Positions 24,341 through 52,707 of a DNA stretch of 64,000 nt are shown here, in pieces. The translations under genes and the position numbers were made by a program. Within the stretch, counting starts at the first letter, position 1; the number at the start of each line of letters is the position of its first letter. The notes under the pieces are model-generated. The model was not told the DNA's origin and made no database searches. It worked only from the letters and a program-made list of their open reading frames with translations. Origin of the DNA: Escherichia coli (GTDB lineage: Bacteria; Pseudomonadota; Gammaproteobacteria; Enterobacterales; Enterobacteriaceae); assembly GCF_013315695.1 (NCBI RefSeq), contig NZ_CP054353.1; one strand, 5' to 3'.

Positions 24341-25027
24341 TTAAATGCCGAGTGGGAAAATATCATGGCCTTGTTCCTGCCAACTGGTGAGTTGCTGCTG
24401 TTGGGCGGAGGTTCGATTTTCACCGCACCACACCAGCAATGTACGGCCTTCGAACAGTTCAGGGCGTAGTTGATTGAGCGAGTGGGCGAGGACATCAATG
24501 CGCCATCCTTGTTGACTGGCAATCCAGCCCTCCAGCCACAGACGGGTGGTATCCTGAATATTCCAGCCAACCACCAGCGCATCTTTACCCTGTTTTTTAC
24601 GTGCCGAAGCCAGACAAATGGCAATGTAGTTGATCAGTACGCCGTCGAGGATCGCCAGCAGCGCCTGGAGAGTCGGTTGTTGGCACTGAAGCCGTCGGCG
24701 CAGTGGAATGAACAGATGTGTGGTGAGTGTCTGGGCGGGGTAATCCTGACCGCGCTCTTTGATCCACGTTCGCAGGCTATGCAGATTGCCGCTTTGCAGG
24801 TAAGTCAGTAATGTTTCTTGCTGATCGCGCCAGCCGTTCTGCACATCAACATTTTCATTACTGAGCAGCATTTTTACTTTGCTGACCTGCACGCCATTGT
24901 CGATCCAGCGTTTGATCTCGCGGATCCGGTCAATATCGGCATCGTTGAACAGCCGATGACCGCCGTCTGTCCGTTGCGGTTTCAGCAATCCGTAACGCCT
25001 CTGCCACGCGCGTAACGTGACAGGGAT
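24341..25027 (-). pseudogene. mlrA: MerR-family curli regulator MlrA (YehV), 5' end replaced by prophage DNA
   Basis: Reading frame matches MlrA from ...PVTLRAWQRRYGLLKPQRTDGGHRLF onward; upstream codons diverge and hit an in-frame stop, with no ATG for the native N-terminus (MALYTIGEVALLCDIN missing); first in-frame ATG gives the 215-aa ORF 24341..24988. Confidence 0.7.
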
Positions 25028-25062
25028 TAAGGGTAAACTAACTGATTTTACAAGTTTTTATT

Positions 25063-26349
25063 TTACCCCACTTTCTTATGGGGCATACATGGGACACTTT
25101 CAGATAGTCTTTTGTTAAGGAGTTCTATCTGTTCGTGATTGTTGTCTTTCATCCATGCTCCGTAAACATTGAATACCATTTGTGCGTTTGTGTGGCCCAT
25201 CTGGCTTGCGATAAAACTAGGATTAGCTCCAGCGGCAAGTGACCAGCATGCATAAGTATGCCTGGATTGGTACGATTTTCTGTGTCTCAGACCTGCGTGT
25301 TTTAAGATACTTGTCCATGACTCCCTGATGGAGTCAACCTTATAGTGCGGTCCGGAAAACTGCCGCTGTTTTATTACCTGAGGACTAAAAACAAAAGTGC
25401 ATTTATGCACAGTACTTCTCCCATATTCCCTCTGCTTTACCTCTACAGAATGTTGCTTTCCAAGCATGGTCATTTCCGCCTGACTTTTAAGAGCATCAAT
25501 AGCTGGTTGAACCAGATGAATTGTCCTTCCGGTGCCAGCATCGGTTTTTGGTGGAGTGAATTCGCCAAGTTTTGTATAATTCCTACGGATGGTTATAGTC
25601 CTTGCTTTAAGATCTATATCTTCCCATGCCAGCGATACCAGCTCCCCGTGACGAATACCCGTGTATACAGCGAGAATCCACAGGTTTTTTGTTTGTTGAT
25701 GACGGCAAGCCTCAATAAAACGAATAAATTCGTCACGGGTGAGAGGATCTGGTTTTACCTTGGACTTTTTTAAGGGAGCCAGACCGTTAAATGGGTTTCC
25801 TGAGGTATAACCATTATCTGTTGCAAATTGAAACATTCCAGCTATGGTTGTCATATAGTAGTTTACCGTGACCACTGAGCGCCCTTTTATGGAAGAAGTC
25901 TTTCCATTAGAAAGTTTTTGGTAACCGGTCAACAAATCTCTCCTTACGAAAAGTAAATCCTCTTTTGTTATGGATGAAACCAGTTTTTTTTCACCTAACA
26001 TTGGTAACATGTTTTTAATTACTGACTGGTAACGGTTAAGTGCATTCGCACAAATCTCAATTTTCTTAAGGTCCAACCATTTTTCCGAAAGTGCCTTAAC
26101 GGTTATCTCTCTTTTTCCCAGACCAAAGTGTTTCAGGTTAGGGGAATTAGGGAACTGCGCGGAGTAGTCGAAACTCCCCATTCTGATTGCAAAACAAACG
26201 GAAGTGCGAAGTTCACCAGCGATCTTCCGGTTTTTGGCTGTGTCAGGAACACCGAGGTTTTCTCTGACACGTTTGCCATTATAGTGAAACCATATACGGA
26301 GTGATCCTCCATGGTTTTCAACGCCTGTCGGGTATGATGCGTTACTCAT
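25063..26349 (-). CDS. int: tyrosine-type site-specific integrase
   Basis: 428-aa ORF with R (GIRHGEL), HxxR (SRHTYA) and catalytic Y (VFNVYGAW) motifs; adjacent to the attL junction. Confidence 0.9.
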   Translation of the reverse strand: MSNASYPTGVENHGGSLRIWFHYNGKRVRENLGVPDTAKNRKIAGELRTSVCFAIRMGSFDYSAQFPNSPNLKHFGLGKREITVKALSEKWLDLKKIEICANALNRYQSVIKNMLPMLGEKKLVSSITKEDLLFVRRDLLTGYQKLSNGKTSSIKGRSVVTVNYYMTTIAGMFQFATDNGYTSGNPFNGLAPLKKSKVKPDPLTRDEFIRFIEACRHQQTKNLWILAVYTGIRHGELVSLAWEDIDLKARTITIRRNYTKLGEFTPPKTDAGTGRTIHLVQPAIDALKSQAEMTMLGKQHSVEVKQREYGRSTVHKCTFVFSPQVIKQRQFSGPHYKVDSIRESWTSILKHAGLRHRKSYQSRHTYACWSLAAGANPSFIASQMGHTNAQMVFNVYGAWMKDNNHEQIELLNKRLSESVPCMPHKKVG

Positions 26350-29543: not shown

Positions 29544-30139
29544 TTGCGTAACTCCGATAAATCGTTAAAACGTTCCATAAACATCCCGTAGGCATGACCC
29601 GGTGCCAGTGGAATCACGTTGAACATCTCTGTTGCCGGGATGCCTTCCAGTACTGGCCAGAAAGAGCCATCATCAAGCCCGAGATCGCGGCGTTCGGTTG
29701 CCAGCATGATGAGATCGGCATATTTCACAGGCGTGCGCATAACCGGGGGTAACCCGTATTTCTCACGGATTACGGCGTCTATTTTTTCTTCCATCCGTTT
29801 ATAGTCAGGAAGAAGGCGTTTCAGTGGAGCGGGAATATCCTGGCAATACGCTTCTGTTGCATCATGCATTAACGCTTCAAAAGCAAATTCCTGCGGCACC
29901 AGCTGGCTGCAAAGCACCGCATGCTGGGCGACACTGTAGAAGTGTGAAAGATGTCCTGCAAAGCGACAGATATTTGAAAGGGAAACCGCGATATCGTTAA
30001 TCACGATGTCGTCTTTATTTATCTTGTCATAATAAAAATGCTTCCCGGAAAAAGTTTTAATAAATGACATTTCGTTCTCCACTTTATATGCGCTGCACCG
30101 CTCTGAATTTTGATTGCAGCAATCCAGCCCATTTGACAT
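29534..30139 (-). CDS. HD-domain metal-dependent phosphohydrolase (5'-nucleotidase-like)
   Basis: 201-aa ORF with H...HD motif (SVAQHAVLCS ... ALMHDATEAY). Confidence 0.55.
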   Translation of the reverse strand: MSNGLDCCNQNSERCSAYKVENEMSFIKTFSGKHFYYDKINKDDIVINDIAVSLSNICRFAGHLSHFYSVAQHAVLCSQLVPQEFAFEALMHDATEAYCQDIPAPLKRLLPDYKRMEEKIDAVIREKYGLPPVMRTPVKYADLIMLATERRDLGLDDGSFWPVLEGIPATEMFNVIPLAPGHAYGMFMERFNDLSELRKCA

Positions 30140-30160
30140 GGGATGATTGCTGCAATTTTT

Positions 30161-31078
30161 TTAAGTTGTTGGATTTTGGCTTTTATCTTCTTTGTAAGAA
30201 AGAAGGTCACACATCAAATTAACTACCTTGCTGAATTGGAAAAGGTCAGCGCCAGTCTGATGACGCCACTGGAATGCTTTATCATCTTCATCATTAAATG
30301 TCTGAGATTGAGTATTGATGCGCGAAAAATGGAAATTTTCGGTAAGAATGAAGGTCACACCGCAACCGGATAACTCCATTTTATCAGCAGTGAAACTACT
30401 ACTAAGGCTATCGGCCAGTTCGCTTTGAATTGACTCATGCTCAGCTGAGTAGCGAATAATTTCCTTTTGATCTGCGTAGCGTGATAGCTGAATATAATTT
30501 CCGACAGTGAATCCTTCAAATGCATTGGCTGCACCATTGATGTAGTTATTCAGGCGTGTAGTCAGTCCATTCTTGATATCACTGATGTTGATTGTTTCTG
30601 TTTTCACTGAACCGACAACCTTAATCAGCATTGCGCATACCATACCGGCTATTATTTTATTGGTTGTGTTGATTACCAATAATTTCTCATCAGTGCTGTA
30701 CAATGCAAGAATCAGAGTAGACTTAACAAATGCCTGTTTGCATAGATCTACTCGTACGTTATCAATAATGGCCAGTCGTTCGGCACGCTTTAATTTATTC
30801 CCGGACATATTTTCGGTTGTTTGGATTCGAGAATTAGCTTCTTTCATGACGACATGTCGGGGAATTATTTTCTGATCATGACGGATTACCATTGCGTACC
30901 CACCAGATATCGGAGTTACCAGTTCACCAGTGACAGGATTCTCTACAAAAGAGGACCGTGAAAATTCTGTTTCCCCGATTTCAGAATAAGGGAGTTCGAG
31001 AAGATGACCTTCAATAGCCTGTATACTAGGTAATGTTGCTCGGTACACAATTGCGTTACGAAATTTTGGTAATTTCAT
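30161..31078 (-). CDS. RdgC-like recombination-associated protein
   Basis: Long ORF 30161..31279; likely start MKLPKFRNAIVYRATLP at 31078 with a GAGGAAAA RBS; RdgC-like N-terminus; AT-rich. Confidence 0.5.
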   Translation of the reverse strand: MKLPKFRNAIVYRATLPSIQAIEGHLLELPYSEIGETEFSRSSFVENPVTGELVTPISGGYAMVIRHDQKIIPRHVVMKEANSRIQTTENMSGNKLKRAERLAIIDNVRVDLCKQAFVKSTLILALYSTDEKLLVINTTNKIIAGMVCAMLIKVVGSVKTETINISDIKNGLTTRLNNYINGAANAFEGFTVGNYIQLSRYADQKEIIRYSAEHESIQSELADSLSSSFTADKMELSGCGVTFILTENFHFSRINTQSQTFNDEDDKAFQWRHQTGADLFQFSKVVNLMCDLLSYKEDKSQNPTT

Positions 31079-31692
31079 TCTATTTTCCTCTGCACAATGT
31101 ATTAGTTTCTCCACAAAACAGAGAAGAACACCTGCGGTGGCAGCCGCCCGGATGGATTGGGTTATGAGCCCGTCGTCCGGTGATGCTCTTCTCTGTTTTG
31201 TAAAAAGAGCGGTACCAGCCGGAAGCAAGTGTACAAACTGGTACCGCCAAAGCAGTGGCTGTTGTGGTGGGGTTGTCACTCAGGCGTATGGTCAACCTGA
31301 CAACCCGGTGTCCTCAACGGGGAAAGAGTAACCCCGCCATACTTACCGCCGCGCCATTTCGCGGATTACCACAACGCTGAGAGCACTTAGCCAGTTACGG
31401 CACCACACTTTGTCGCGGTTCCATAAATGCCCTCATCGTTGCACCCTGGTCTCTTCCCAGGCGTCAAACCGAATCGCCACGCTGGTTAGGCGTCTTATCA
31501 GCATCCTCATTGACTTGCACATTCCGGCTATCTGGTTTGTTTGCCCGAGCAAGGAGTGGATTGTCCCCTTTAACGTCCCCAGACCGCTAACGACGCATGT
31601 GCCATACGCCGTGTTACAACCAAATTTTGTTAGTACCTTGTTTGTAGGTCTGGAGAGAAAGATAAAATGAAGTTGCGCATTATGCAAGTGTT

Positions 31693-42691: not shown

Positions 42692-42767
42692 GGCCCTTTA
42701 GCTCAGTGGTGAGAGCGAGCGATTCATAATCGCCAGGTCGCTGGTTCAAATCCAGCAAGGGCCACCA
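42692..42767 (+). tRNA. tRNA with CAU anticodon (Ile2/Met-type; ileZ-like)
   Basis: Cloverleaf GGCCCTT-TA-GCTCAGTGGTGAGAGC..anticodon loop TTCATAA..GGTTCAAATCC..AAGGGCC-A-CCA. Confidence 0.85.
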
Positions 42768-42774
42768 TCACATA

Positions 42775-42851
42775 CCGCCATTAGCTCATCAGGATAGAGC
42801 GCCAGCCTTCGAAGCTGGTTGCGCGGGGTTCGAGTCCTCGATGGCGGTCCA
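42775..42851 (+). tRNA. tRNA-Arg (anticodon UCG; argN-like)
   Basis: Acceptor CCGCCAT/ATGGCGG, anticodon loop CTTCGAA, T-loop GGTTCGAGTCC, encoded CCA. Confidence 0.8.
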
Positions 42852-42864
42852 TTATCTGTACCCT

Positions 42865-42941
42865 GCGTTATTAGCTCAGCCGGACAGAGCAATTGCCTTC
42901 TAAGCAATCGGTCACTGGTTCGAATCCAGTACAACGCGCCA
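42865..42941 (+). tRNA. tRNA-Arg (anticodon UCU; argO/argU-like)
   Basis: GCGTTATTAGCTCAGCCGGACAGAGC..anticodon loop CTTCTAA..GGTTCGAATCC..CGCCA, close to host argU. Confidence 0.8.
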
Positions 42942-43433: not shown

Positions 43434-45395
43434 ATGGCATTTAAACACTATGACGTGGTCAGGGCGGCATCGCCGTCAGACCTTGCGAAACGACTGACAC
43501 AAAAACTGAAGGAGGGGTGGCAGCCATTTGGCAGTCCGGTGGCCATCACGCCTTATACCCTGATGCAGGCCATTGCGGCGGAAGGTGATGTCACCACACC
43601 TGTGGTGGTGAAGCCGTCGGATGGAGAAGGCGCAGTTATCAGCAACACCAGCAACCCGGAGTATTACTTTGTTGTTGCCCTGGCCGGGCAGTCAAACGGT
43701 ATGGCGTATGGTGAAGGGCTTCCGCTGCCGGAGACATATGACCGTCCGGACCCGCGTATTAAACAGCTGGCGCGTCGCAGCACTGTCACGCCGGGTGGTG
43801 CGTCCTGTAACTACAATGACATTATTCCTGCGGACCACTGCCTGCATGATGTTCAGGATTTGAGTAAGTTTTCACACCCGAAAGCCAGCGCAGCTCAGTA
43901 TGGATGCGTGGGGCAGGGATTACATATCGCGAAGAAATTGTTGCCGTTTATTCCGGCGAATGCCGGTATTCTTCTGGTTCCGTGCTGCCGTGGTGGTTCT
44001 GCATTTTTGGCGGGCGATGAAGGTACCTTCAGCGAATCCACCGGCGCAAGCGAGACCTCGGCACGCTGGGGTGTAGATAAGCCACTGTACAAGGACCTGC
44101 TTACCCGTACTCAGGCCGCACTGAAGGCCAACCCTAAAAATATTCTGCTTGCAGTGGTCTGGATGCAGGGCGAGTTTGATTTGAAACAGGGTGCATACGC
44201 CACTCAGCCGGGGCTGTTTGATTCCATGGTGGAAAAATATCGTTCTGACCTGTCGGAATTCGGAGGTCAGTGTCTCGGGGGCTCTCCGTCATCAGTTCCC
44301 TGGATTTGTGGCGACACGACCTACTACTGGAAGCAGACTTATTCTTCGCAATACGATGCGGTGTATGGTGCATATAAGACGAAATCCGCAAAAAAAATCT
44401 TCTTTGTGCCGTTTATGACGGATGAAAACGGGCGAAATGTGGGTACCAACGAGCCGTCAGAAGATCCGGATGTTGCGGATATTGGGTATTACGGAGCCGG
44501 TGGTCGAACGGACGCCAAAACCTGGACGACGGCTGACCGTAAAACGCATTTTGGATCATGGGCACGTCGTGGGATTATTTCCGACCGTCTGGCAACGGCG
44601 ATTCTTGTGCATGCCGGGAGAACCGCTGAATTCATTACCGGAAAACAGCCTGATACGGTGAAGCCCACCGGACCTTCCGGTGAAGGTACGGAGAGAGAGC
44701 CGGAAGGTCCGGTCAGTAACCGAACCCTGATGAGTCTGCTGGCGTCCGGCGAAGACCTGGCATCACAGGGCTGGCGCTATTATCACAAACCGGCGAGCGG
44801 AGACAATGTTAACAAAAACATTGCTGAAGCGGTGGTCAGTGATGCGGGGGCTACGGGAGGTAAGGCCCTGCAACTGAATAAACCGGAAAACCACATCTGG
44901 TTTCTGGAGCATGATGCAGCCGGGCAGGGGGCAGAGTTGCTGAAGAAAGGAGGACGTGTGAGCGTACGGTTTAAGTTGCCGGGTTCACTGGTGCCGAATC
45001 AGTTTGCCCTGGGCATTTACTGGCAGTTGTCGTCCCTGCCGGAGGGAGTGACGCTGGCAGAGGAAGGCAACGACATGCTGATGTCCTTCTTTCTGCAGAC
45101 GGATGCGACGAACCTGAACGCGATGCACCACAAGAAGCCGAATGCGAAGCTGGAAACGTTCGGGGTCTTTGATAACGGATGGCACACACTGGCTTTTGAG
45201 TTTGCCGGAAACAACAGCATTCAGGTGACGCCGGTACTGGATGAGAAACGGGGGACGCCGTTCACACTGGTGAAATCTCCGGCATCAGGGGCGGCGGACA
45301 AACTGCAACTGACAGGCATATCAAAGGCGGCGACATATACGCTGCTGATTGACAGTGTGAAGGTGGAAGTGAACAACGCGGATGCCGCGGCATGA
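43434..45395 (+). CDS. nanS-p: prophage sialate O-acetylesterase (NanS-p-like)
   Basis: 653-aa ORF; position and sequence recalled as the esterase found downstream of stx in Stx phages. Confidence 0.65.
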   Translation: MAFKHYDVVRAASPSDLAKRLTQKLKEGWQPFGSPVAITPYTLMQAIAAEGDVTTPVVVKPSDGEGAVISNTSNPEYYFVVALAGQSNGMAYGEGLPLPETYDRPDPRIKQLARRSTVTPGGASCNYNDIIPADHCLHDVQDLSKFSHPKASAAQYGCVGQGLHIAKKLLPFIPANAGILLVPCCRGGSAFLAGDEGTFSESTGASETSARWGVDKPLYKDLLTRTQAALKANPKNILLAVVWMQGEFDLKQGAYATQPGLFDSMVEKYRSDLSEFGGQCLGGSPSSVPWICGDTTYYWKQTYSSQYDAVYGAYKTKSAKKIFFVPFMTDENGRNVGTNEPSEDPDVADIGYYGAGGRTDAKTWTTADRKTHFGSWARRGIISDRLATAILVHAGRTAEFITGKQPDTVKPTGPSGEGTEREPEGPVSNRTLMSLLASGEDLASQGWRYYHKPASGDNVNKNIAEAVVSDAGATGGKALQLNKPENHIWFLEHDAAGQGAELLKKGGRVSVRFKLPGSLVPNQFALGIYWQLSSLPEGVTLAEEGNDMLMSFFLQTDATNLNAMHHKKPNAKLETFGVFDNGWHTLAFEFAGNNSIQVTPVLDEKRGTPFTLVKSPASGAADKLQLTGISKAATYTLLIDSVKVEVNNADAAA

Positions 45396-48216: not shown

Positions 48217-48738
48217 ATGAATATCGTGCCACTTAATTACAAAGGTGAAATTGTCAGTTTCAACACTGATGGTTGGATCAACGTCACAGGTGTTGCTGAG
48301 AGATTTGGAAAACGCATTGATAACTGGATGCGTTTGGCAGAAACGCTTGAATACGTTCGTGCTTTAGACGAAGCGTTGACCGGGAAAGAATCTCAAATTT
48401 TACATCCCTCACAATCGAGGTATGTAAAAACCAGCAAGGCACGAAAGGACAGGGGTGGTGGTACGTGGCTACATCCAAAACTTTCAGTTGCATTTGCCCG
48501 TTGGTGTGATGCTCGTTTTGCTGTGTGGTGCGACCTGCACATTGATAGTCTGCTTCGCGGTGAACTGACTGAGCAGCAGAAATATGAGCAAGCATGTCGC
48601 ATTCGCGATGACCGGAAATCAAAAGCCAGCAATGGGGCAAGAGAGATGGCTCGCTGGCGATGGGATAAGCCGGTTATTGAAGCAAATGTTGAGTACTGGC
48701 GCGAGCAACTGCAGTTGACTCTCGATATCGCGTGCTGA
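48217..48738 (+). CDS. KilA-N-like domain protein
   Basis: 173-aa ORF with WLHPKLSVAFARWCDARFAVW motif. Confidence 0.45.
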   Translation: MNIVPLNYKGEIVSFNTDGWINVTGVAERFGKRIDNWMRLAETLEYVRALDEALTGKESQILHPSQSRYVKTSKARKDRGGGTWLHPKLSVAFARWCDARFAVWCDLHIDSLLRGELTEQQKYEQACRIRDDRKSKASNGAREMARWRWDKPVIEANVEYWREQLQLTLDIAC

Positions 48739-49719
48739 TGGCAAACGCAAAACTGCGTTATCGGAAAAATCAAAGCATTACGAGAACTGAGCAACGGCTA
48801 TCCATTACAAAGCCCATCTACGGGTGGGCTTGATAATGAAACCGGAATTTATTCTTGGCAACCAGTTACGGCAGTACCACGAAACAACCCAAGCCAGTAA
48901 GTGGGGAAATAACACTGGCAGCCACTGAAAGATGAAGCTCCTGCCTTAAGGCAAAAAAGATTCTTTGTGGTGGCGGACTGATGGAAAGACATCGGTTATT
49001 GCAGAGGCCATTCAATGAGTGGTCTCGACAATGGCTTATACCCTACACGGGATAACTTAACTGATATCCCTTTTAAAGGATAAAGGTATTCAAGCCTGAC
49101 ACATCATGCGCTGTATCGTCGCCGTATTCCTGCATTAACAGAGACCGCAGCCCGACAGGGAGACTCCTCTGCGCGAGTGTGCGGGGATAATCAAAAACGA
49201 TACACACCGGGGTTTACCGCGTTAACGGAGCGCGGCGTTGTCCCCTCATAGTCGCCTGTCCGGTGCGATGGTGGAAGAAACCGGATGTTTATCACTATTA
49301 ATTGATGACACAGAAATGGATTCATTGAATTTCAGCACGTTTTTGTATTCGTGTTATTGAACATCTGTTTATTTTACTTTTAACATATTGATAATAAAAA
49401 GAGCTGTAAATCTTTAGATGAGTCGATTTTGTCCGGGGAAGTTCAAATGGATTTTATGCTGACGGTTTCTGGTGTGGTTATCCTGTCCATTGCTTATACT
49501 GCAGATAAATATGGCTGCCATTTGTTATCACGTATTGGCGCTTATTGTTCGTTGATGCTGATTTTCTCGTCGCTTTTTTTTGAGTAAGTTATATTAATTA
49601 TAACAAATAATTTTCTGTGTTATTTTTTCAGGCTATCCCGTCAGAGGGGAAGCCTGTACTGCCGGGGAGCGAATGGAAAACTGATGTGTCCGGTAACTGC
49701 GTGTTCTGTGAACACCATG

Positions 49720-49905
49720 TTACTTAATTATGTAATTCATACCCGAACTCTCTGTTGACAGCCTTCTTCTGCAGGCTTCAATAACCCACGCTGAAAAGTT
49801 TCCTGAACCTTTCAGATCAAGAGCGATGTTAATTTGTTCAATCATCTGGTTTGGAAATCGGATGTTGCGGGTTGTTGTTCTGCGGGTTCTGTTCTTTGAT
49901 GACAT
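49720..49905 (-). CDS. small ribbon-helix-helix-like DNA-binding protein (YlcI/DUF3950-like)
   Basis: 61-aa ORF MSSKNRTRRTTTRNIRFPNQMIEQINIALDLKGSGNFSAWVIEACRRRL. Confidence 0.45.
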   Translation of the reverse strand: MSSKNRTRRTTTRNIRFPNQMIEQINIALDLKGSGNFSAWVIEACRRRLSTESSGMNYIIK

Positions 49906-50112
49906 AATGTTTCCCCATATTCAGTGTTGCTGATTTGTATTATCTGAAGTTGCTTTTACGTTAATTTGATGCAGATCAATTAATACGATACCTGCGTCAT
50001 AATTGATTATTTCTCGTGGTTTGATGGCGTACACACATGTTGTGATAAACCTTATATAGATGATAATCATTATCATTTTCGTGGGTCCTTTCCGGCGATC
50101 CGACCGGTTACG

Positions 50113-50124
50113 GGGCGGCGACCT
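50113..50124 (+). other. cosN cohesive-end site
   Basis: gggcggcgacct followed by cgcggattttcactatttatgaaaattttccgg, matching the lambda left cohesive end GGGCGGCGACCT as recalled. Confidence 0.8.
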
Positions 50125-50308
50125 CGCGGATTTTCACTATTTATGAAAATTTTCCGGGATCCATGTCCGGTTTCTCTGCAAGTTAACCATATGAAAAATA
50201 TAAAAACATGCTTTCCATGAACCGGGCATGCGCAAAAAATAGACACTAAAACCGGACATGACCGGTTTTGTTGTGATTGTGAGGTGAGAGTTTTTTGCGA
50301 GGTGAGGA

Positions 50309-50818
50309 GTGGCTACGCAGACTGAAGTTGCCAGGCATTTAAGTCTGACCGATCGCCAGCTTCGCAGATTGCAGAAATTGCCGGGTGCCCCGATATCGAA
50401 TAAGCGAGGGCAACTGGATCTGGATGCCTGGCGCGATTTTTACATATCGTATCTGAGAAGAAGTAAAAACGATGTGCCTGATGGCGATAGCGAAGACGAC
50501 TATGAGGAGAAATTGCTTATTGCCAGATGGGAACTGACAGCAGAACAGGCTGTTACACAGCAGTTAAAAAATGAGGTGTCAAAAGGAAAACTTATTGACA
50601 CCGGGTTCTGTATTTTTGCCCTCAGCAAGCTGGCAATGGCGTTATCCAGTACGCTTGATTCCATCCCTTTATCCATGCAGCGACAGTTTCCTGATTTAAC
50701 ACCGCGCCATCTTGACCATCTGAAAACCCTTATTGCGAAGGGGGCAAATCAGTGTGCGCGGGCGGGGGATAAATTACCGGATTTACTCGATGAATATATC
50801 AGAGCAACAACTGAATAA
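50309..50818 (+). CDS. terminase small subunit (Nu1-like)
   Basis: 169-aa ORF (GTG start); C-terminal similarity to lambda Nu1. Confidence 0.8.
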   Translation: MATQTEVARHLSLTDRQLRRLQKLPGAPISNKRGQLDLDAWRDFYISYLRRSKNDVPDGDSEDDYEEKLLIARWELTAEQAVTQQLKNEVSKGKLIDTGFCIFALSKLAMALSSTLDSIPLSMQRQFPDLTPRHLDHLKTLIAKGANQCARAGDKLPDLLDEYIRATTE

Positions 50819-52707
50819 TATGATGAGTGCTGTCACAACAGCATTACAGCCCCTGATAAGGGCATTGCCGGTGACGCCAGTTGAATGGGCTGATCAAAAT
50901 TATTATCTGCCTAAAGAATCTTCATATGGTGAGGGAGAATGGAAAACGCTGCCGTTCCAGATCGCCATCATGAACAGCATGGGGAATGATCAGATCCGGA
51001 CTGTTAATCTGATTAAATCTGCCCGTGTTGGCTATACAAAGATGTTGCTGGGGGTGGTCGGGTATTTTATTGAGCATAAATCCCGAAACAGTCTGCTTTT
51101 TCAGCCCACGGATTCTGCCGCTGAAGATTTTATGAAGTCTCACGTGGAGGCGACGATTCGGGATGTGCCATGTCTGAAAGACCTTTCTCCATGGCTGGGG
51201 CGTAAACATCGTGACAATACTCTCACGCTGAAACGCTTTTCATCGGGTGTGGGCTTCTGGTGCCTGGGCGGCGCTGCCGCCAAAAACTACCGTGAAAAAT
51301 CCGTGGACGTGGTCTGCTATGACGAACTTTCCTCGTTCGAACCGGATGTCGAAAAAGAGGGTTCGCCAACCCTGCTTGGGGATAAACGTATTGAGGGCTC
51401 TGTATGGCCCAAATCCATTCGCGGCTCGACGCCTAAAATCAAAGGCACCTGCCAGATCGAAAAAGCGGCCAACGAGTCGGCGCATTTCATGCGTTTTTAT
51501 GTGCCCTGCCCGCACTGTGGGGAGGCGCAGTATCTGAAATTTGGCGATGAGTCCACGCCTTTTGGCCTTAAATGGGAGAAGGACAGCCCCGAAAGCGTTT
51601 TCTACCTCTGTGAACATCATGGCTGCGTGATCCATCAGTCTGAGCTTGACCAGAGCAACGGGCGGTGGATCTGTGAAAACACGGGGATGTGGACCCGCGA
51701 CGGTCTGACGTTTTTCAGCGCTGCGGATAATGAAATTCCGCCGCCGCGCTCCATCACATTCCATATCTGGACGGCGTACAGTCCGTTCACCACCTGGGTA
51801 CAGATTGTCTATGACTGGCTGGATGCACTGAAAGATCCCAACGGCCTGAAAACCTTTGTGAACACCACGCTGGGCGAGACCTGGGAAGAGGCCGTGGGCG
51901 AAAAACTCGATCACCAGGTGCTGATGGATAAGGTTGTGCGTTACACGGCTGCGGTGCCTTCCCGGGTGGTTTATCTGACGGCGGGCATTGACTCGCAGCG
52001 AAACCGTTTTGAGATGTATGTCTGGGGATGGGCTCCGGGAGAGGAAGCCTTTCTGGTGGATAAAATCATCATTATGGGGCGTCCCGATGAGGAAGAGACG
52101 CTGTTACGTGTGGATGTGGCGATCAACAAAAAATACCGCCATGCAGACGGAACCGAAATGACCATTTCCCGTGTCTGCTGGGACACCGGGGGGAATTGTC
52201 TATCAGAGGTCAAAAAAACACGGTGTTTTCCGGGTGCTGCCGGTAAAAGGTGCATCTGTTTATGGCAAGCCGGTGATCACCATGCCAAAAACCCGCAATC
52301 AGCGGGGCGTGTATCTGTGCGAAGTGGGGACGGACACCGCAAAAGAAATTCTCTATGCCCGTATGAAAGCCGATCCCACGCCTGCGGATGAAGCCACGTC
52401 GTATGCCATCCGTTTTCCTGATGATCCGGAGATTTTTTCGCAGACAGAGGCGCAGCAACTGGTGGCGGAAGAGCTTGTGGAGAAGTGGGAAAAAGGAAAG
52501 ATGCGTCTGCTGTGGGATAACAAAAAGCGGCGTAACGAAGCGCTGGACTGCCTGGTGTATGCCTACGCGGCATTACGTGTGTCCGTGCAACGCTGGCAGC
52601 TTGATCTGGCTGTACTGGCAAAATCCCGGGAAGAAGAGACGACCCGGCCAACCCTTAAAGAACTGGCAGCGAAGCTGTCCGGAGGAGTGAATGGTTACAG
52701 TCGCTGA
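50790..52707 (+). pseudogene. terminase large subunit (lambda A-like) with a frameshift at 52188-52193
   Basis: N-terminal frame (MNISEQQLNN...RVCWDTGG) and C-terminal frame (GIVYQRSKKHGVFRVLPVKGASVYGKPV...) both match lambda gpA as recalled, but are offset by one base at a run of six G. Confidence 0.8.

What the first reader, a model, noticed from the sequence alone, without database searches (positions are those of the whole stretch)
50113..50124. cos site fixes the phage genome ends
gggcggcgacct is identical to the lambda cohesive end as recalled, and is followed by a lambda-like cosB/IHF region (cgcggattttcactatttatgaaaattttccgg). This fixes the packaged-genome coordinates and places the lysis-proximal cargo at the right arm.
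Basis: partly seen in the sequence, partly recalled or inferred. Interest (0 to 1): 0.3.

Follow-up and report, generated by a model that had tools for sequence, protein, structure and literature searches.

The report
Lambda-type cos site, non-lambda recognition half
This is a real lambda-family cohesive-end (cos) site in an E. coli prophage, but the part that terminase recognises belongs to a different, uncharacterised class, and the prophage's own cutting enzyme gene is broken, so the site probably cannot be cut without a helper phage.

Summary
GGGCGGCGACCT lies at 50113-50124, the only exact copy in the window, inside a block homologous to lambda and phage 21. That block holds cosQ (7/7 identical), cosN (16/16) and the next 33 bp (31/33).

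1. The quoted "cosB/IHF" string is the conserved cosN flank plus the I2 spacer (bp 13-45), not cosB.
2. True cosB (bp 46-196) is unrelated to lambda (26% identity). It carries four CATGNCCGGTT boxes and an IHF-like core, laid out like the R3-I1-R2-R1 sites annotated for phage 21. The first box sits at bp 50-60, where R3 lies.
3. The adjacent small terminase subunit matches lambda/21/N15 proteins only in its C-terminal ~60%. Its N-terminal winged-helix domain belongs to a separate small family, and 7 of 9 further family members examined have CCGGTT boxes upstream of their gene.
4. The large terminase gene has a private 11-bp deletion that truncates the nuclease domain after residue 468. This prophage (about 49 kb, at mlrA) probably cannot cut its own cos.

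Verdict: an ordinary cos site of a common but uncharacterised specificity class, found in 21% of complete E. coli genomes, and here dependent on a helper.

The parts
50083..50089 (+). cosQ (GGGTCCT), bp -30..-24 relative to the left cohesive end; the packaging-termination signal
   Evidence: 7/7 identical to lambda and phage 21 at the same register. Invariant in 7 diverged copies. Falls within the 'R4 ... terminal cos cleavage' feature of the phage 21 record. That lambda cosQ lies at 48473-48479 is from my own knowledge; that the 7-bp cosQ is highly conserved is from PMC4669245.
50111..50126 (+). cosN (CG|GGGCGGCGACCT|CG). Predicted nicks lie between 50112/50113 on the top strand and 50124/50125 on the bottom strand, giving 12-nt 5' cohesive ends
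   Evidence: 12/12 identical to lambda, with the CG dinucleotides flanking both nick positions conserved. 0/16 columns vary among 7 copies. The 16-bp definition is from PMC9026076. The nick positions are inferred by homology and were not measured.
50127..50157 (+). cosN-to-cosB spacer containing the I2 IHF-type site (TATGAAAATTTTCCG, 50142-50156 = bp 30-44).
   Evidence: 31/33 identical to lambda and 30/33 to phage 21 over bp 13-45. I2 is annotated at bp 30-44 in M81255. The IHF-consensus scan hits the same 13-mer in the window and in lambda.
50162..50173 (+). R3-equivalent box CATGTCCGGTTT (bp 50-61), the proposed primary TerS binding site
   Evidence: Same position as lambda R3 (bp 50-65, PMC9026076) and the annotated phage 21 R3 (bp 50-65). 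It is one of four CATGNCCGGTT copies, the only ones in 64 kb (0.13 expected). Invariant in 7 copies. CCGGTT lies at bp 55-60 in the independent relative L016 as well.
50184..50196 (-). I1-equivalent IHF-like core (TTTCATATGGTTA on the - strand, bp 72-84) with an adjacent A/T-rich tract
   Evidence: 2 mismatches to WATCAANNNNTTR, the same quality, strand and position (within 2 bp) as the lambda I1 core AAACATTAAGTTA. Phage 21 I1 is annotated at bp 72-86. This is consensus-level evidence only.
50220..50230 (-). R2-equivalent box, inverted (CATGCCCGGTT on the - strand, bp 108-118)
   Evidence: Phage 21 R2 is annotated, inverted, at bp 107-122. Relatives read CATGTCCGGTT here.
50249..50268 (.). 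Overlapping inverted pair of boxes, AAACCGGACATGACCGGTTT: a - strand copy at bp 137-148 and an R1-equivalent + strand copy at bp 145-156. It is also hairpin-capable and followed by a T-run
   Evidence: Phage 21 R1 is annotated at bp 150-165. 1 of 18 columns varies among 7 copies. The terminator scan flags 50247-50270 on both strands.
50309..50818 (+). Small terminase subunit (TerS, 169 aa, GTG start): divergent N-terminal winged-HTH domain, then a Nu1-like oligomerisation and TerL-binding part
   Evidence: Pfam Phage_Nu1 covers only residues 48-149 (profile 62-163 of 164). tblastn to lambda, 21, N15, phi80 and Gifsy-1 aligns only residues ~58-165. The N-terminal family has 41 representatives and is aligned. 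AF2 model pLDDT 88.6. Fold hits are MerR/Xis-type wHTH domains, including gpNu1 1J9I and Rpp 6HN7. Same protein as RefSeq WP_000235436.1.
50790..52707 (+). Large terminase subunit (TerL, gpA family), a pseudogene: an 11-bp deletion (ATCGATGGCGA) between 52193 and 52194 shifts the frame after residue 468
   Evidence: Residues 1-468 are identical to the intact 642-aa TerL of strain N1, followed by 65 aberrant residues and a stop. The Pfam GpA_nuclease match is split at profile position ~158 of 294. The deletion is absent from all 1,879 complete E. coli genomes carrying this segment.

Best explanation
Window 50083-50308 is the cohesive-end site of a lambdoid prophage. The collinear relative is about 49 kb and integrated at mlrA/yehV.

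The site has two halves with different histories. The core (cosQ, cosN and the I2 spacer, bp -30 to +45) is nearly identical to lambda and phage 21. By homology it specifies staggered nicks that leave 12-nt 5' ends, GGGCGGCGACCT.

The recognition half (cosB, bp 46-196) belongs to a specificity class different from lambda, 21 and N15. It has four CATGNCCGGTT boxes and an IHF-like core. A + strand box sits at the R3 position, the IHF-like core at the I1 position, an inverted box at the R2 position, and an overlapping inverted pair at the R1 position.

Inferred mechanism: the adjacent TerS, whose N-terminal winged-HTH domain belongs to a separate 'MATQxEVAxHLxLSDRQ' family, binds these boxes across an IHF-induced bend. 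This positions TerL to nick cosN, as in lambda and 21.

In this particular sequence TerL is truncated in the middle of its nuclease domain by a private 11-bp deletion. It also lacks the coiled-coil helix and portal tether. The prophage therefore cannot cut or package its own DNA. Its cos could still be used in trans: for initiation by a co-resident prophage of the same class, and probably for termination by any lambda-like terminase.

Shown: sequence identities, box positions, domain boundaries and the frameshift. Inferred: TerS-box binding, IHF binding, nick positions and use in trans.
For: Core:
- cosQ 7/7, cosN 12/12 plus flanking CGs, and bp 13-45 31/33 identical to lambda.
- DE3 annotates the aligned 12-mer as its cos site.

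cosB:
- Identity to lambda and to 21 drops to 25-26% from bp 46.
- All four CATGNCCGGTT copies in 64 kb lie at bp 50-155, against 0.13 expected.
- Their positions and orientations parallel the curated R3/I1/R2/R1 features of phage 21, M81255.
- Among 7 diverged copies, 2/40 box columns vary against 19/111 elsewhere in cosB (P = 0.04).

TerS:
- The Nu1 profile matches only the C-terminal part.
- lambda, 21, N15, phi80 and Gifsy-1 TerS align only over residues ~58-165.
- No PDB sequence hit, but the predicted fold is a MerR/gpNu1/Rpp-type wHTH.

Co-variation:
- 9 of 11 loci (7 of 9 family members other than the window's own protein, from E. coli-like, Aeromonas, Pseudomonas and metagenome sources) carry (T)TCCGGTT boxes between a cos-like core and the TerS start.
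- L016 has CCGGTT at bp 55-60 exactly as here. L018 repeats the +/-/+ layout. The phiARM81ld record starts with a lambda-like 12-mer and has the box at bp 52-68.

Functional relatives: PhiR12_1 to PhiR12_5 phages, propagated on K-12 or E. coli C, carry an identical TerS, a 98%-identical cos and an intact TerL.

TerL defect.

In-trans plausibility: this cosB type occurs in 1,142 of 5,426 genomes, with a median of 2 places per genome. Termination is independent of cosB specificity (PMC4669245).
Against: - No virion-end data exist for this prophage or for any phage of this class in the records or papers searched. The PhiR12 records are in prophage order, with cos internal.
- TerS-box binding and IHF binding are inferred from position, repetition and co-variation only.
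- The conservation test is weak: P = 0.04, on related sequences.
- Two family members (L020, L021) lack CCGGTT and have other repeats at that position.
- The boxes share CATGTC with phage 21 R2/R1 (TTTCATGTCGGNCCTT), so cross-recognition by a 21-type TerS is not excluded.
- The overlapping box pair could be a terminator-like hairpin instead of, or as well as, a binding site.
- The 11-bp deletion could be an assembly error. I cannot see the reads.
Confidence: 0.72

Rival explanations
1. One reading: a lambda cos with a lambda-like cosB, used by the prophage's own terminase, so that 50113 is the left end of the virion chromosome this prophage produces.
For: The 12-mer, cosQ and bp 13-45 are identical or near-identical to lambda. 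TerS, TerL, portal, protease, gpD, gpE and tail genes follow in lambda order.
Against: cosB from bp 46 is unrelated to lambda (26% identity; specificity positions bp 56/59 are C/T against lambda T/C). The TerS DNA-binding domain falls outside the Nu1 profile. TerL is frameshifted in the nuclease domain.
Confidence: 0.08
2. The 11-bp deletion in terL is a sequencing or assembly artefact. The prophage is fully functional and cos is used in cis, still with the non-lambda cosB class.
For: The deletion occurs in none of the 1,879 genomes carrying this segment. Everything else in 33 kb is 99.4% identical to an intact prophage, with no other frame-breaking indel.
Against: An 11-bp loss outside a repeat is not a typical consensus error. 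The absence of homopolymer-type indels elsewhere argues for a clean assembly. Recent private inactivating mutations are common in prophages (general knowledge).
Confidence: 0.17
3. The repeated boxes, especially the overlapping pair at 50249-50268, are transcription-terminator or regulatory hairpins in the late operon leader, not terminase binding sites.
For: The terminator scan calls 50247-50270 on both strands and 50154-50170 (6 sites found against 1.9 expected). Lambda and 21 also have a hairpin-capable inverted repeat followed by Ts between R2 and R1 (read directly from the sequences).
Against: The box recurs as single, non-hairpin copies at the R3 and R2 positions. The box sequence tracks the TerS DNA-binding family across genera, even where no hairpin is formed. 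The two roles are not mutually exclusive.
Confidence: 0.1
4. The cos is a satellite-type (PICI-like) cos that hijacks a helper terminase through a redirecting protein.
For: PICI cos sites also combine a lambda-like cosQ/cosN with an unrelated cosB (PMC9026076, PMC6739421). The resident TerL is defective, so packaging would need a helper.
Against: The element is a ~49-kb prophage with its own cognate TerS, TerL and a full head and tail gene set. PICI cosB is described as lacking I1, R2 and R1 (PMC9026076), whereas multiple boxes and an IHF-like core are present here. Intact relatives are plaque-forming phages.
Confidence: 0.02

Closest known systems
Bacteriophage lambda cos (cosQ-cosN-cosB; gpNu1/gpA terminase)
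   Same: cosQ 7/7, the cohesive-end 12-mer 12/12, the flanking CG dinucleotides, and the I2 spacer 31/33. The cosN-to-R3 distance is the same (box starts at bp 50). The TerS start is at bp 197 against 191 in lambda. TerS, TerL, W, portal and the following genes are in lambda order.
   Different: The R boxes are unrelated (CATGTCCGGTTT against CGTTTCCGTTCTTCTT; 3/20 identity at bp 46-65). The TerS recognition domain is not detectable as Nu1 by sequence. There is an extra inverted box overlapping R1. TerL is a pseudogene here.
Bacteriophage 21 cos (M81255; curated R4, I2, R3, I1, R2, R1, I0)
   Same: Identical cosQ and cosN. Same subsite layout within a few bp: R3 at bp 50-65, I1 at 72-86, inverted R2 at 107-122, R1 at 150-165. 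The boxes share the CATGTC half with 21's TTTCATGTCGGNCCTT.
   Different: The second half of the box differs (CGGTTT against GGNCCTT). bp 56/59 are C/T against G/G. TerS-21 aligns only over the C-terminal 60% at 40% identity.
N15 / Monarch packaging specificity
   Same: A lambda-like cos core combined with a non-lambda R3 at bp ~48-60. One relative of the window's TerS family (L016) carries the N15-type cohesive end GGGCGGCGTCCG. phiARM81ld has a simple N15-like layout, with a box at bp 52-68 and TerS at bp 79.
   Different: N15 R3 is GAGGTTGTTGTT (PMC4669245). N15 TerS aligns only over the C-terminal part. The window has a complex multi-box cosB, not the single-R3 type.
PICI cos recognised by Rpp-TerS (EcCICFT073 type)
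   Same: A lambda-like cosQ/cosN with a completely different cosB, read by a winged-HTH protein of the same fold class. The Rpp structure 6HN7 is among the fold matches (TM 0.60).
   Different: Here the recognition domain is part of a bona fide TerS inside a complete phage morphogenesis operon. PICI cosB is described as lacking I1, R2 and R1 (PMC9026076).

Membership tests
Lambda-like cos site (12-nt 5' cohesive ends; cosQ-cosN-cosB) | [quoted passage not shown] | tested here: met
   12/12 identical to J02459 bp 1-12
Lambda-like cos site (12-nt 5' cohesive ends; cosQ-cosN-cosB) | Conserved CG dinucleotides flanking both nick positions (16-bp cosN) | tested here: met
   CGGGGCGGCGACCTCG at 50111-50126. 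Invariant in 7 copies.
Lambda-like cos site (12-nt 5' cohesive ends; cosQ-cosN-cosB) | 7-bp cosQ about 30 bp upstream of the nick | tested here: met
   GGGTCCT at bp -30..-24, 7/7 identical to lambda and 21
Lambda-like cos site (12-nt 5' cohesive ends; cosQ-cosN-cosB) | TerS-binding element at the critical distance from cosN (R3 at about bp 50-65) | tested here: met
   Repeated box at bp 50-61. Binding itself was not tested.
Lambda-like cos site (12-nt 5' cohesive ends; cosQ-cosN-cosB) | Complex cosB: R3, IHF site, inverted R2, R1 | tested here: met
   + box at bp 50-60, IHF-like core at bp 72-84, - box at bp 108-118, + box at bp 145-155, plus an extra - box at bp 138-148. Sequence-level evidence only.
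Lambda-like cos site (12-nt 5' cohesive ends; cosQ-cosN-cosB) | Adjacent genes for Nu1-family TerS and gpA-family TerL | tested here: met
   Phage_Nu1 (partial), GpA_ATPase and GpA_nuclease matches. TerL is frameshifted.
Lambda-like cos site (12-nt 5' cohesive ends; cosQ-cosN-cosB) | Virion DNA ends map to the site as 12-nt 5' overhangs | not testable with these tools
   Needs virion DNA. No end data were found in the records or papers searched.
Lambda packaging specificity (cosB-lambda / gpNu1 DNA-binding domain) | R boxes of the CGTTTCC(G/T)TTCT type, with T at bp 56 and C at bp 58/59 | tested here: not met
   3/20 identity at bp 46-65. bp 56/59 are C/T.
Lambda packaging specificity (cosB-lambda / gpNu1 DNA-binding domain) | gpNu1-type recognition domain (helix residues 17-24, Q20/E24) | tested here: not met
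   Nu1 profile positions 1-61 are unmatched. tblastn aligns only residues 72-163. The aligned helix reads DRQLRRLQ.
Phage 21 packaging specificity | R boxes TTTCATGTCGGNCCTT, with G at bp 56 and 59 | tested here: not met
   Shares CATGTC only. bp 56/59 are C/T. 5/20 identity at bp 46-65.
Phage 21 packaging specificity | TerS-21 DNA-binding domain | tested here: not met
   M81255 gene 1 aligns only to residues 63-165 at 39.8% identity
N15 packaging specificity | R3 = GAGGTTGTTGTT at bp 48-59; TerS-N15 recognition helix | tested here: not met
   The window has TCCATGTCCGGT at bp 48-59. N15 gp1 aligns only to residues 58-163.
PICI (Rpp-dependent) cos | Simple cosB on a satellite that lacks terminase and capsid genes | tested here: not met
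   A full TerS, TerL, head and tail operon lies downstream, and cosB has multiple boxes

The most novel reading that the evidence does not exclude
This cos represents a further, experimentally uncharacterised packaging-specificity class of lambda-like phages. The class pairs a 'MATQ'-type winged-HTH TerS domain with CATGTCCGGTT/CCGGTT boxes, alongside the lambda, 21 and N15 classes. It is present in about a fifth of complete E. coli genomes, including O157:H7 and O26, often in two or more prophages per genome. Terminase-defective members like this one could therefore be packaged in trans by siblings of the same class.
Probability: 0.55. Interest if true: 0.45.

Novelty: new member of a known kind. 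Interest (0 to 1): 0.3.

Why it matters
As a cos site it is ordinary. It lets an annotator orient the prophage map: head and tail genes form the left arm, and the tRNAs, SASA esterase, lysis genes and KilA-N gene form the right end.

Two corrections matter in practice.
- A lambda-identical 12-mer does not mean lambda packaging specificity. cosB and the TerS recognition domain decide which terminase can start packaging, and here they belong to a class that, as far as I could find, nobody has tested, although it is common in pathogenic E. coli.
- A perfect cos does not mean a packageable prophage. The resident nuclease gene is broken, so mobilisation of this element and its cargo would depend on a compatible co-resident phage. 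That question is relevant to the defective-prophage pools of EHEC and ExPEC.

Tried and rejected
- Sequence search of TerS against PDB chains found nothing meaningful, not even gpNu1.
- The word-indexed homologue search with the N-terminal 69 residues returned only truncated fragments. The exhaustive representative search replaced it.
- Foldseek on the full-length model gave no significant E-values. Only the consistent fold class of the hits (MerR, Xis, RacA, BldC, gpNu1, Rpp) is used, as weak support.
- The Rfam scan of 48700-50900 gave only sub-threshold chance hits, so no known RNA element lies here.
- The promoter scan was not enriched: 3 found against 4.9 expected.
- The 1-mismatch 12-mer at 2435 was rejected as a second cos, because it has no cosQ or I2 flanks and lies in coding GC-rich DNA.
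- Literature searches for PhiR12, phiARM81ld end determination, or a description of this cosB class found nothing relevant.
- I did not retrieve the PICI cos sequences for a direct box comparison. The PICI reading was rejected on gene content instead.

Full report
**Observation.** The 12-mer GGGCGGCGACCT is at window 50113-50124 on the + strand. It is the only exact copy in the window and is identical to bp 1-12 of lambda J02459. They match lambda bp 13-45 at 31/33 positions, differing at bp 18 and 24. blastn aligns window 49900-50157 to lambda, DE3, HK629, HK630 and many others at about 88% identity (E = 7e-88). The DE3 record annotates the aligned 12-mer as its cos site. A 1-mismatch copy at 2435 lies in GC-rich coding DNA without any cos flanks and is a chance match.

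**Anatomy of the core.** I number from bp 1 = 50113.
- cosQ (GGGTCCT) is at bp -30..-24 (50083-50089), 7/7 identical to lambda and 21.
- The 16-bp cosN, CG|GGGCGGCGACCT|CG, is fully conserved.
- Both elements are invariant among seven diverged copies of this cos from E. coli chromosomes and a phage.
- The quoted string is therefore not cosB. It is the cosN right flank plus the spacer that carries the weak IHF site I2.
- The phage 21 record M81255 annotates I2 at bp 30-44.
- Feiss et al. note strong conservation of cosQ, cosN and I2 among lambda, 21 and N15 (PMC4669245).

**cosB is not lambda's.** From bp 46 (50158) the identity to lambda falls to 40/151, and to 3/20 over the R3 position. Against phage 21 it is 37/151. 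From about 50061 onward the window is 98% identical to phages PhiR12_1 to PhiR12_5, and cosB is 100% identical to that of E. coli CE10. Sequences to the left of about bp -45 fall into several unrelated families among phages that share this cosB. Lambda shares the window's left flank but not its right. The conserved ~75-bp cos core is thus a mosaic joint.

**Layout of the boxes.** The replacement cosB contains four copies of CATGNCCGGTT. These are the only copies in the 64-kb window, against 0.13 expected.

| Element in window | Strand | Position (bp) | Phage 21 annotation |
|---|---|---|---|
| Box 1 | + | 50-60 | R3, 50-65 |
| IHF-like core TTTCATATGGTTA | - | 72-84 | I1, 72-86 |
| Box 2 | - | 108-118 | R2 (inverted), 107-122 |
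| Box 3 | - | 138-148 | none |
| Box 4 | + | 145-155 | R1, 150-165 |
| TerS start | + | 197 | gene 1, 189 |

- Lambda R3 spans bp 50-65, with TerS contacts at bp 55-63 (PMC9026076).
- The IHF-like core has the same quality, strand and position (within 2 bp) as the best consensus match in lambda I1.
- The boxes share CATGTC with 21's R2/R1 consensus TTTCATGTCGGNCCTT but differ in the other half.
- At the specificity positions bp 56/59 the window has C/T, lambda T/C and 21 G/G (roles of these positions from PMC4669245).
- N15's R3 (GAGGTTGTTGTT, PMC4669245) is unrelated.
- Among the seven copies, 2/40 box columns vary against 19/111 elsewhere in cosB. This is one-sided P = 0.04 on related sequences, so only modest support.

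**The cognate TerS.** The ORF at 50309-50818 (GTG start, 169 aa, = WP_000235436.1) matches Pfam Phage_Nu1 only over residues 48-149, which is profile 62-163 of 164. tblastn aligns lambda, 434, phi80, 21, N15 and Gifsy-1 TerS only over the C-terminal ~55-63%, at 34-47% identity. Full-length matches are limited to the PhiR12 phages (100%), Pseudomonas phage LPPA33 (43%) and Aeromonas phages such as phiARM81ld (about 30-35%).

An exhaustive search with residues 1-62 finds a small family of 41 representatives. Nearly all are 150-190-aa TerS-like proteins with the domain at the extreme N-terminus. The conserved motif is MATQxE(V/I)AxHLxLSDRQ...P.SKGRGG.DLDACR..YI.YLR. The AlphaFold model (pLDDT 88.6) has helix 4-10, helix 15-22, an extended segment and helix 38-54. 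Foldseek matches, although individually insignificant, are uniformly MerR/excisionase-type winged-HTH domains. They include the lambda gpNu1 DNA-binding domain (1J9I, TM 0.56), Rpp (6HN7, TM 0.60) and another viral TerS domain (7LW0, TM 0.65). So the fold class is the same as gpNu1, but the recognition helix differs (DRQLRRLQ against IRTIQNWQ in the alignment).

**Co-variation test.** If this domain reads the boxes, other family members should carry similar boxes. In 9 of 11 loci examined, representing 7 of 9 family members other than the window's own protein, a (T)TCCGGTT box lies between a cosQ/cosN-like core and the TerS start. It is often doubled as CCGGTTCCGGTT.
- L016 (57% identical domain) has ATGTCCGGTT with CCGGTT at bp 55-60, exactly as in the window. 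Its cohesive end is N15-like (GGGCGGCGTCCG), and it has an inverted second copy.
- L018/L019 repeat the R3(+)/R2(-)/R1(+) layout with CAYTTCCGGTT.
- The phiARM81ld record begins with GGGCGTTAGACC and has CATTTCCGGTTCCGGTT at bp 52-68.
- Two members (L020, L021) have different repeats at that position.

This is the strongest evidence that the boxes are the TerS recognition elements. It is still an inference.

**The resident terminase is broken.** TerL (50790-52707) is split into two frames. Alignment with near-identical chromosomes (99.7%) shows an 11-bp deletion (ATCGATGGCGA) between 52193 and 52194. Residues 1-468 are identical to the intact 642-aa protein of strain N1. They are followed by 65 out-of-frame residues and a stop. 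Pfam shows GpA_ATPase intact and GpA_nuclease cut at profile position ~158 of 294. The TerL C-terminal domain contains the endonuclease centre, the coiled-coil helix and the portal tether (PMC9026076), so the truncated protein should neither nick cosN nor dock on proheads.

The deletion occurs in none of the 1,879 complete E. coli genomes that carry this segment. It is also the only frame-breaking indel in 33 kb that is otherwise 99.4% identical to the N1 prophage. It is either a recent private mutation or, less likely, an assembly error. The other head and tail ORFs visible in the window have the same lengths as in N1.

**Context.** The window is collinear with a prophage of strain N1 integrated at mlrA (yehV). 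The integrase corresponds to window 25063-26349 on the - strand. In N1 the element spans about 49.2 kb, from the split mlrA to a small mlrA remnant, a lambda-sized chromosome. In the window, the right arm runs from about 25.0 kb to cos. Only 13.9 kb of the left arm is present, and the remaining ~10 kb (L to J, lom, tail fibre) lies beyond the window end. Those genes are the tRNA cluster at 42692-42941, the SASA-family esterase at 43434-45395, the holin, lysozyme and Rz genes, KilA-N at 48217-48738 and DUF3950 at 49720-49905.

**How it most likely works.**
- Shown: the core is lambda-type. cosB and the TerS N-terminal domain are of a different, matched class. TerL is truncated.
- Inferred: in intact relatives, TerS dimers bind the R3 and R2 boxes across an IHF bend and position TerL to nick at 50112/50113 (top strand) and 50124/50125 (bottom strand). 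In this copy, cutting requires terminase supplied in trans.
- Trans supply is plausible. This cosB class is found in 1,142 of 5,426 complete genomes, including O157:H7 and O26, with a median of two places per genome.
[quoted passage not shown] Any lambda-like terminase arriving from an upstream compatible cos could probably terminate here.

**Comparison and novelty.** The site meets every sequence-level criterion of a lambda-like cos. It fails the tests for lambda, 21 and N15 specificity and for a PICI cos (see the membership table). I found no paper describing this TerS/cosB class or the ends of phages carrying it. Phages with an identical TerS have been sequenced and annotated simply as 'terminase subunit Nu1'. 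I rate it a new member (a further specificity class) of a well-known kind, not a new kind.

Noticed in passing
window 50277-50288 and 50295-50306: Two copies of TTGYGAGGTGAG, 18 bp apart, immediately upstream of the TerS GTG start (bp 165-176 and 183-194). They are Shine-Dalgarno-like, lie roughly where phage 21 has its annotated I0 IHF site (bp 172-186), and are nearly invariant in 7 relatives.
   Followed up: no
window 50247-50270; lambda bp ~136-151; phage 21 bp ~131-153: All three cos types have a hairpin-capable inverted repeat followed by Ts between R2 and R1 (lambda GAGGC-TTTTTG-GCCTC; 21 AAAATGCC-TTTTTCT-GGCGTTTT). In the window the hairpin is formed by two overlapping boxes and is called terminator-like on both strands. 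I do not know a function for it.
   Followed up: partly
protein P0022: A 2,465-aa protein in the representative library matches the 62-residue TerS DNA-binding domain in 19 separate stretches (28% identity, E = 5.5e-19). This would be a highly repetitive array of this winged-HTH unit; its origin is unknown.
   Followed up: no
window 42692-42941: A cluster of three tRNA genes downstream of the Q-antiterminator region and upstream of the esterase and lysis genes: CAT anticodon (called Met by ARAGORN, annotated tRNA-Ile in the relative), Arg-TCG and Arg-TCT.
   Followed up: no
window 43434-45395: A 653-aa SASA-family carbohydrate esterase with DUF1737 and DUF6645 domains lies between the tRNAs and the holin. 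It is late-operon cargo that would sit near the right end of the virion map.
   Followed up: no
window 30110-31101: The only segment (~1 kb, early/recombination region) that is not collinear with the otherwise ~99%-identical prophage of E. coli strain N1, a local module replacement.
   Followed up: no
window ~24341-25060: The prophage is inserted at mlrA (yehV), with the integrase gene (428 aa, 25063-26349, - strand) next to the truncated mlrA. In the relative, a 66-bp mlrA remnant marks the other end ~49.2 kb away. From my own knowledge, this is the site used by Stx1 prophages in O157:H7.
   Followed up: partly
window 50226 (cos bp 114): The R2-equivalent box reads CATGCCCGGTT in the window and in CE10 but CATGTCCGGTT in all other copies examined. 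This single substitution falls at the one box position that also varies between boxes: T, C or A.
   Followed up: partly
L005 (E. coli O157:H7 FRIK804) and L008 (CE10): Other copies of this cos class lie next to different lesions: TerS truncated by an IS66-family element in O157:H7, and an IS3 insertion ~330 bp upstream of cosB in CE10. Decay around this cos type seems common.
   Followed up: no
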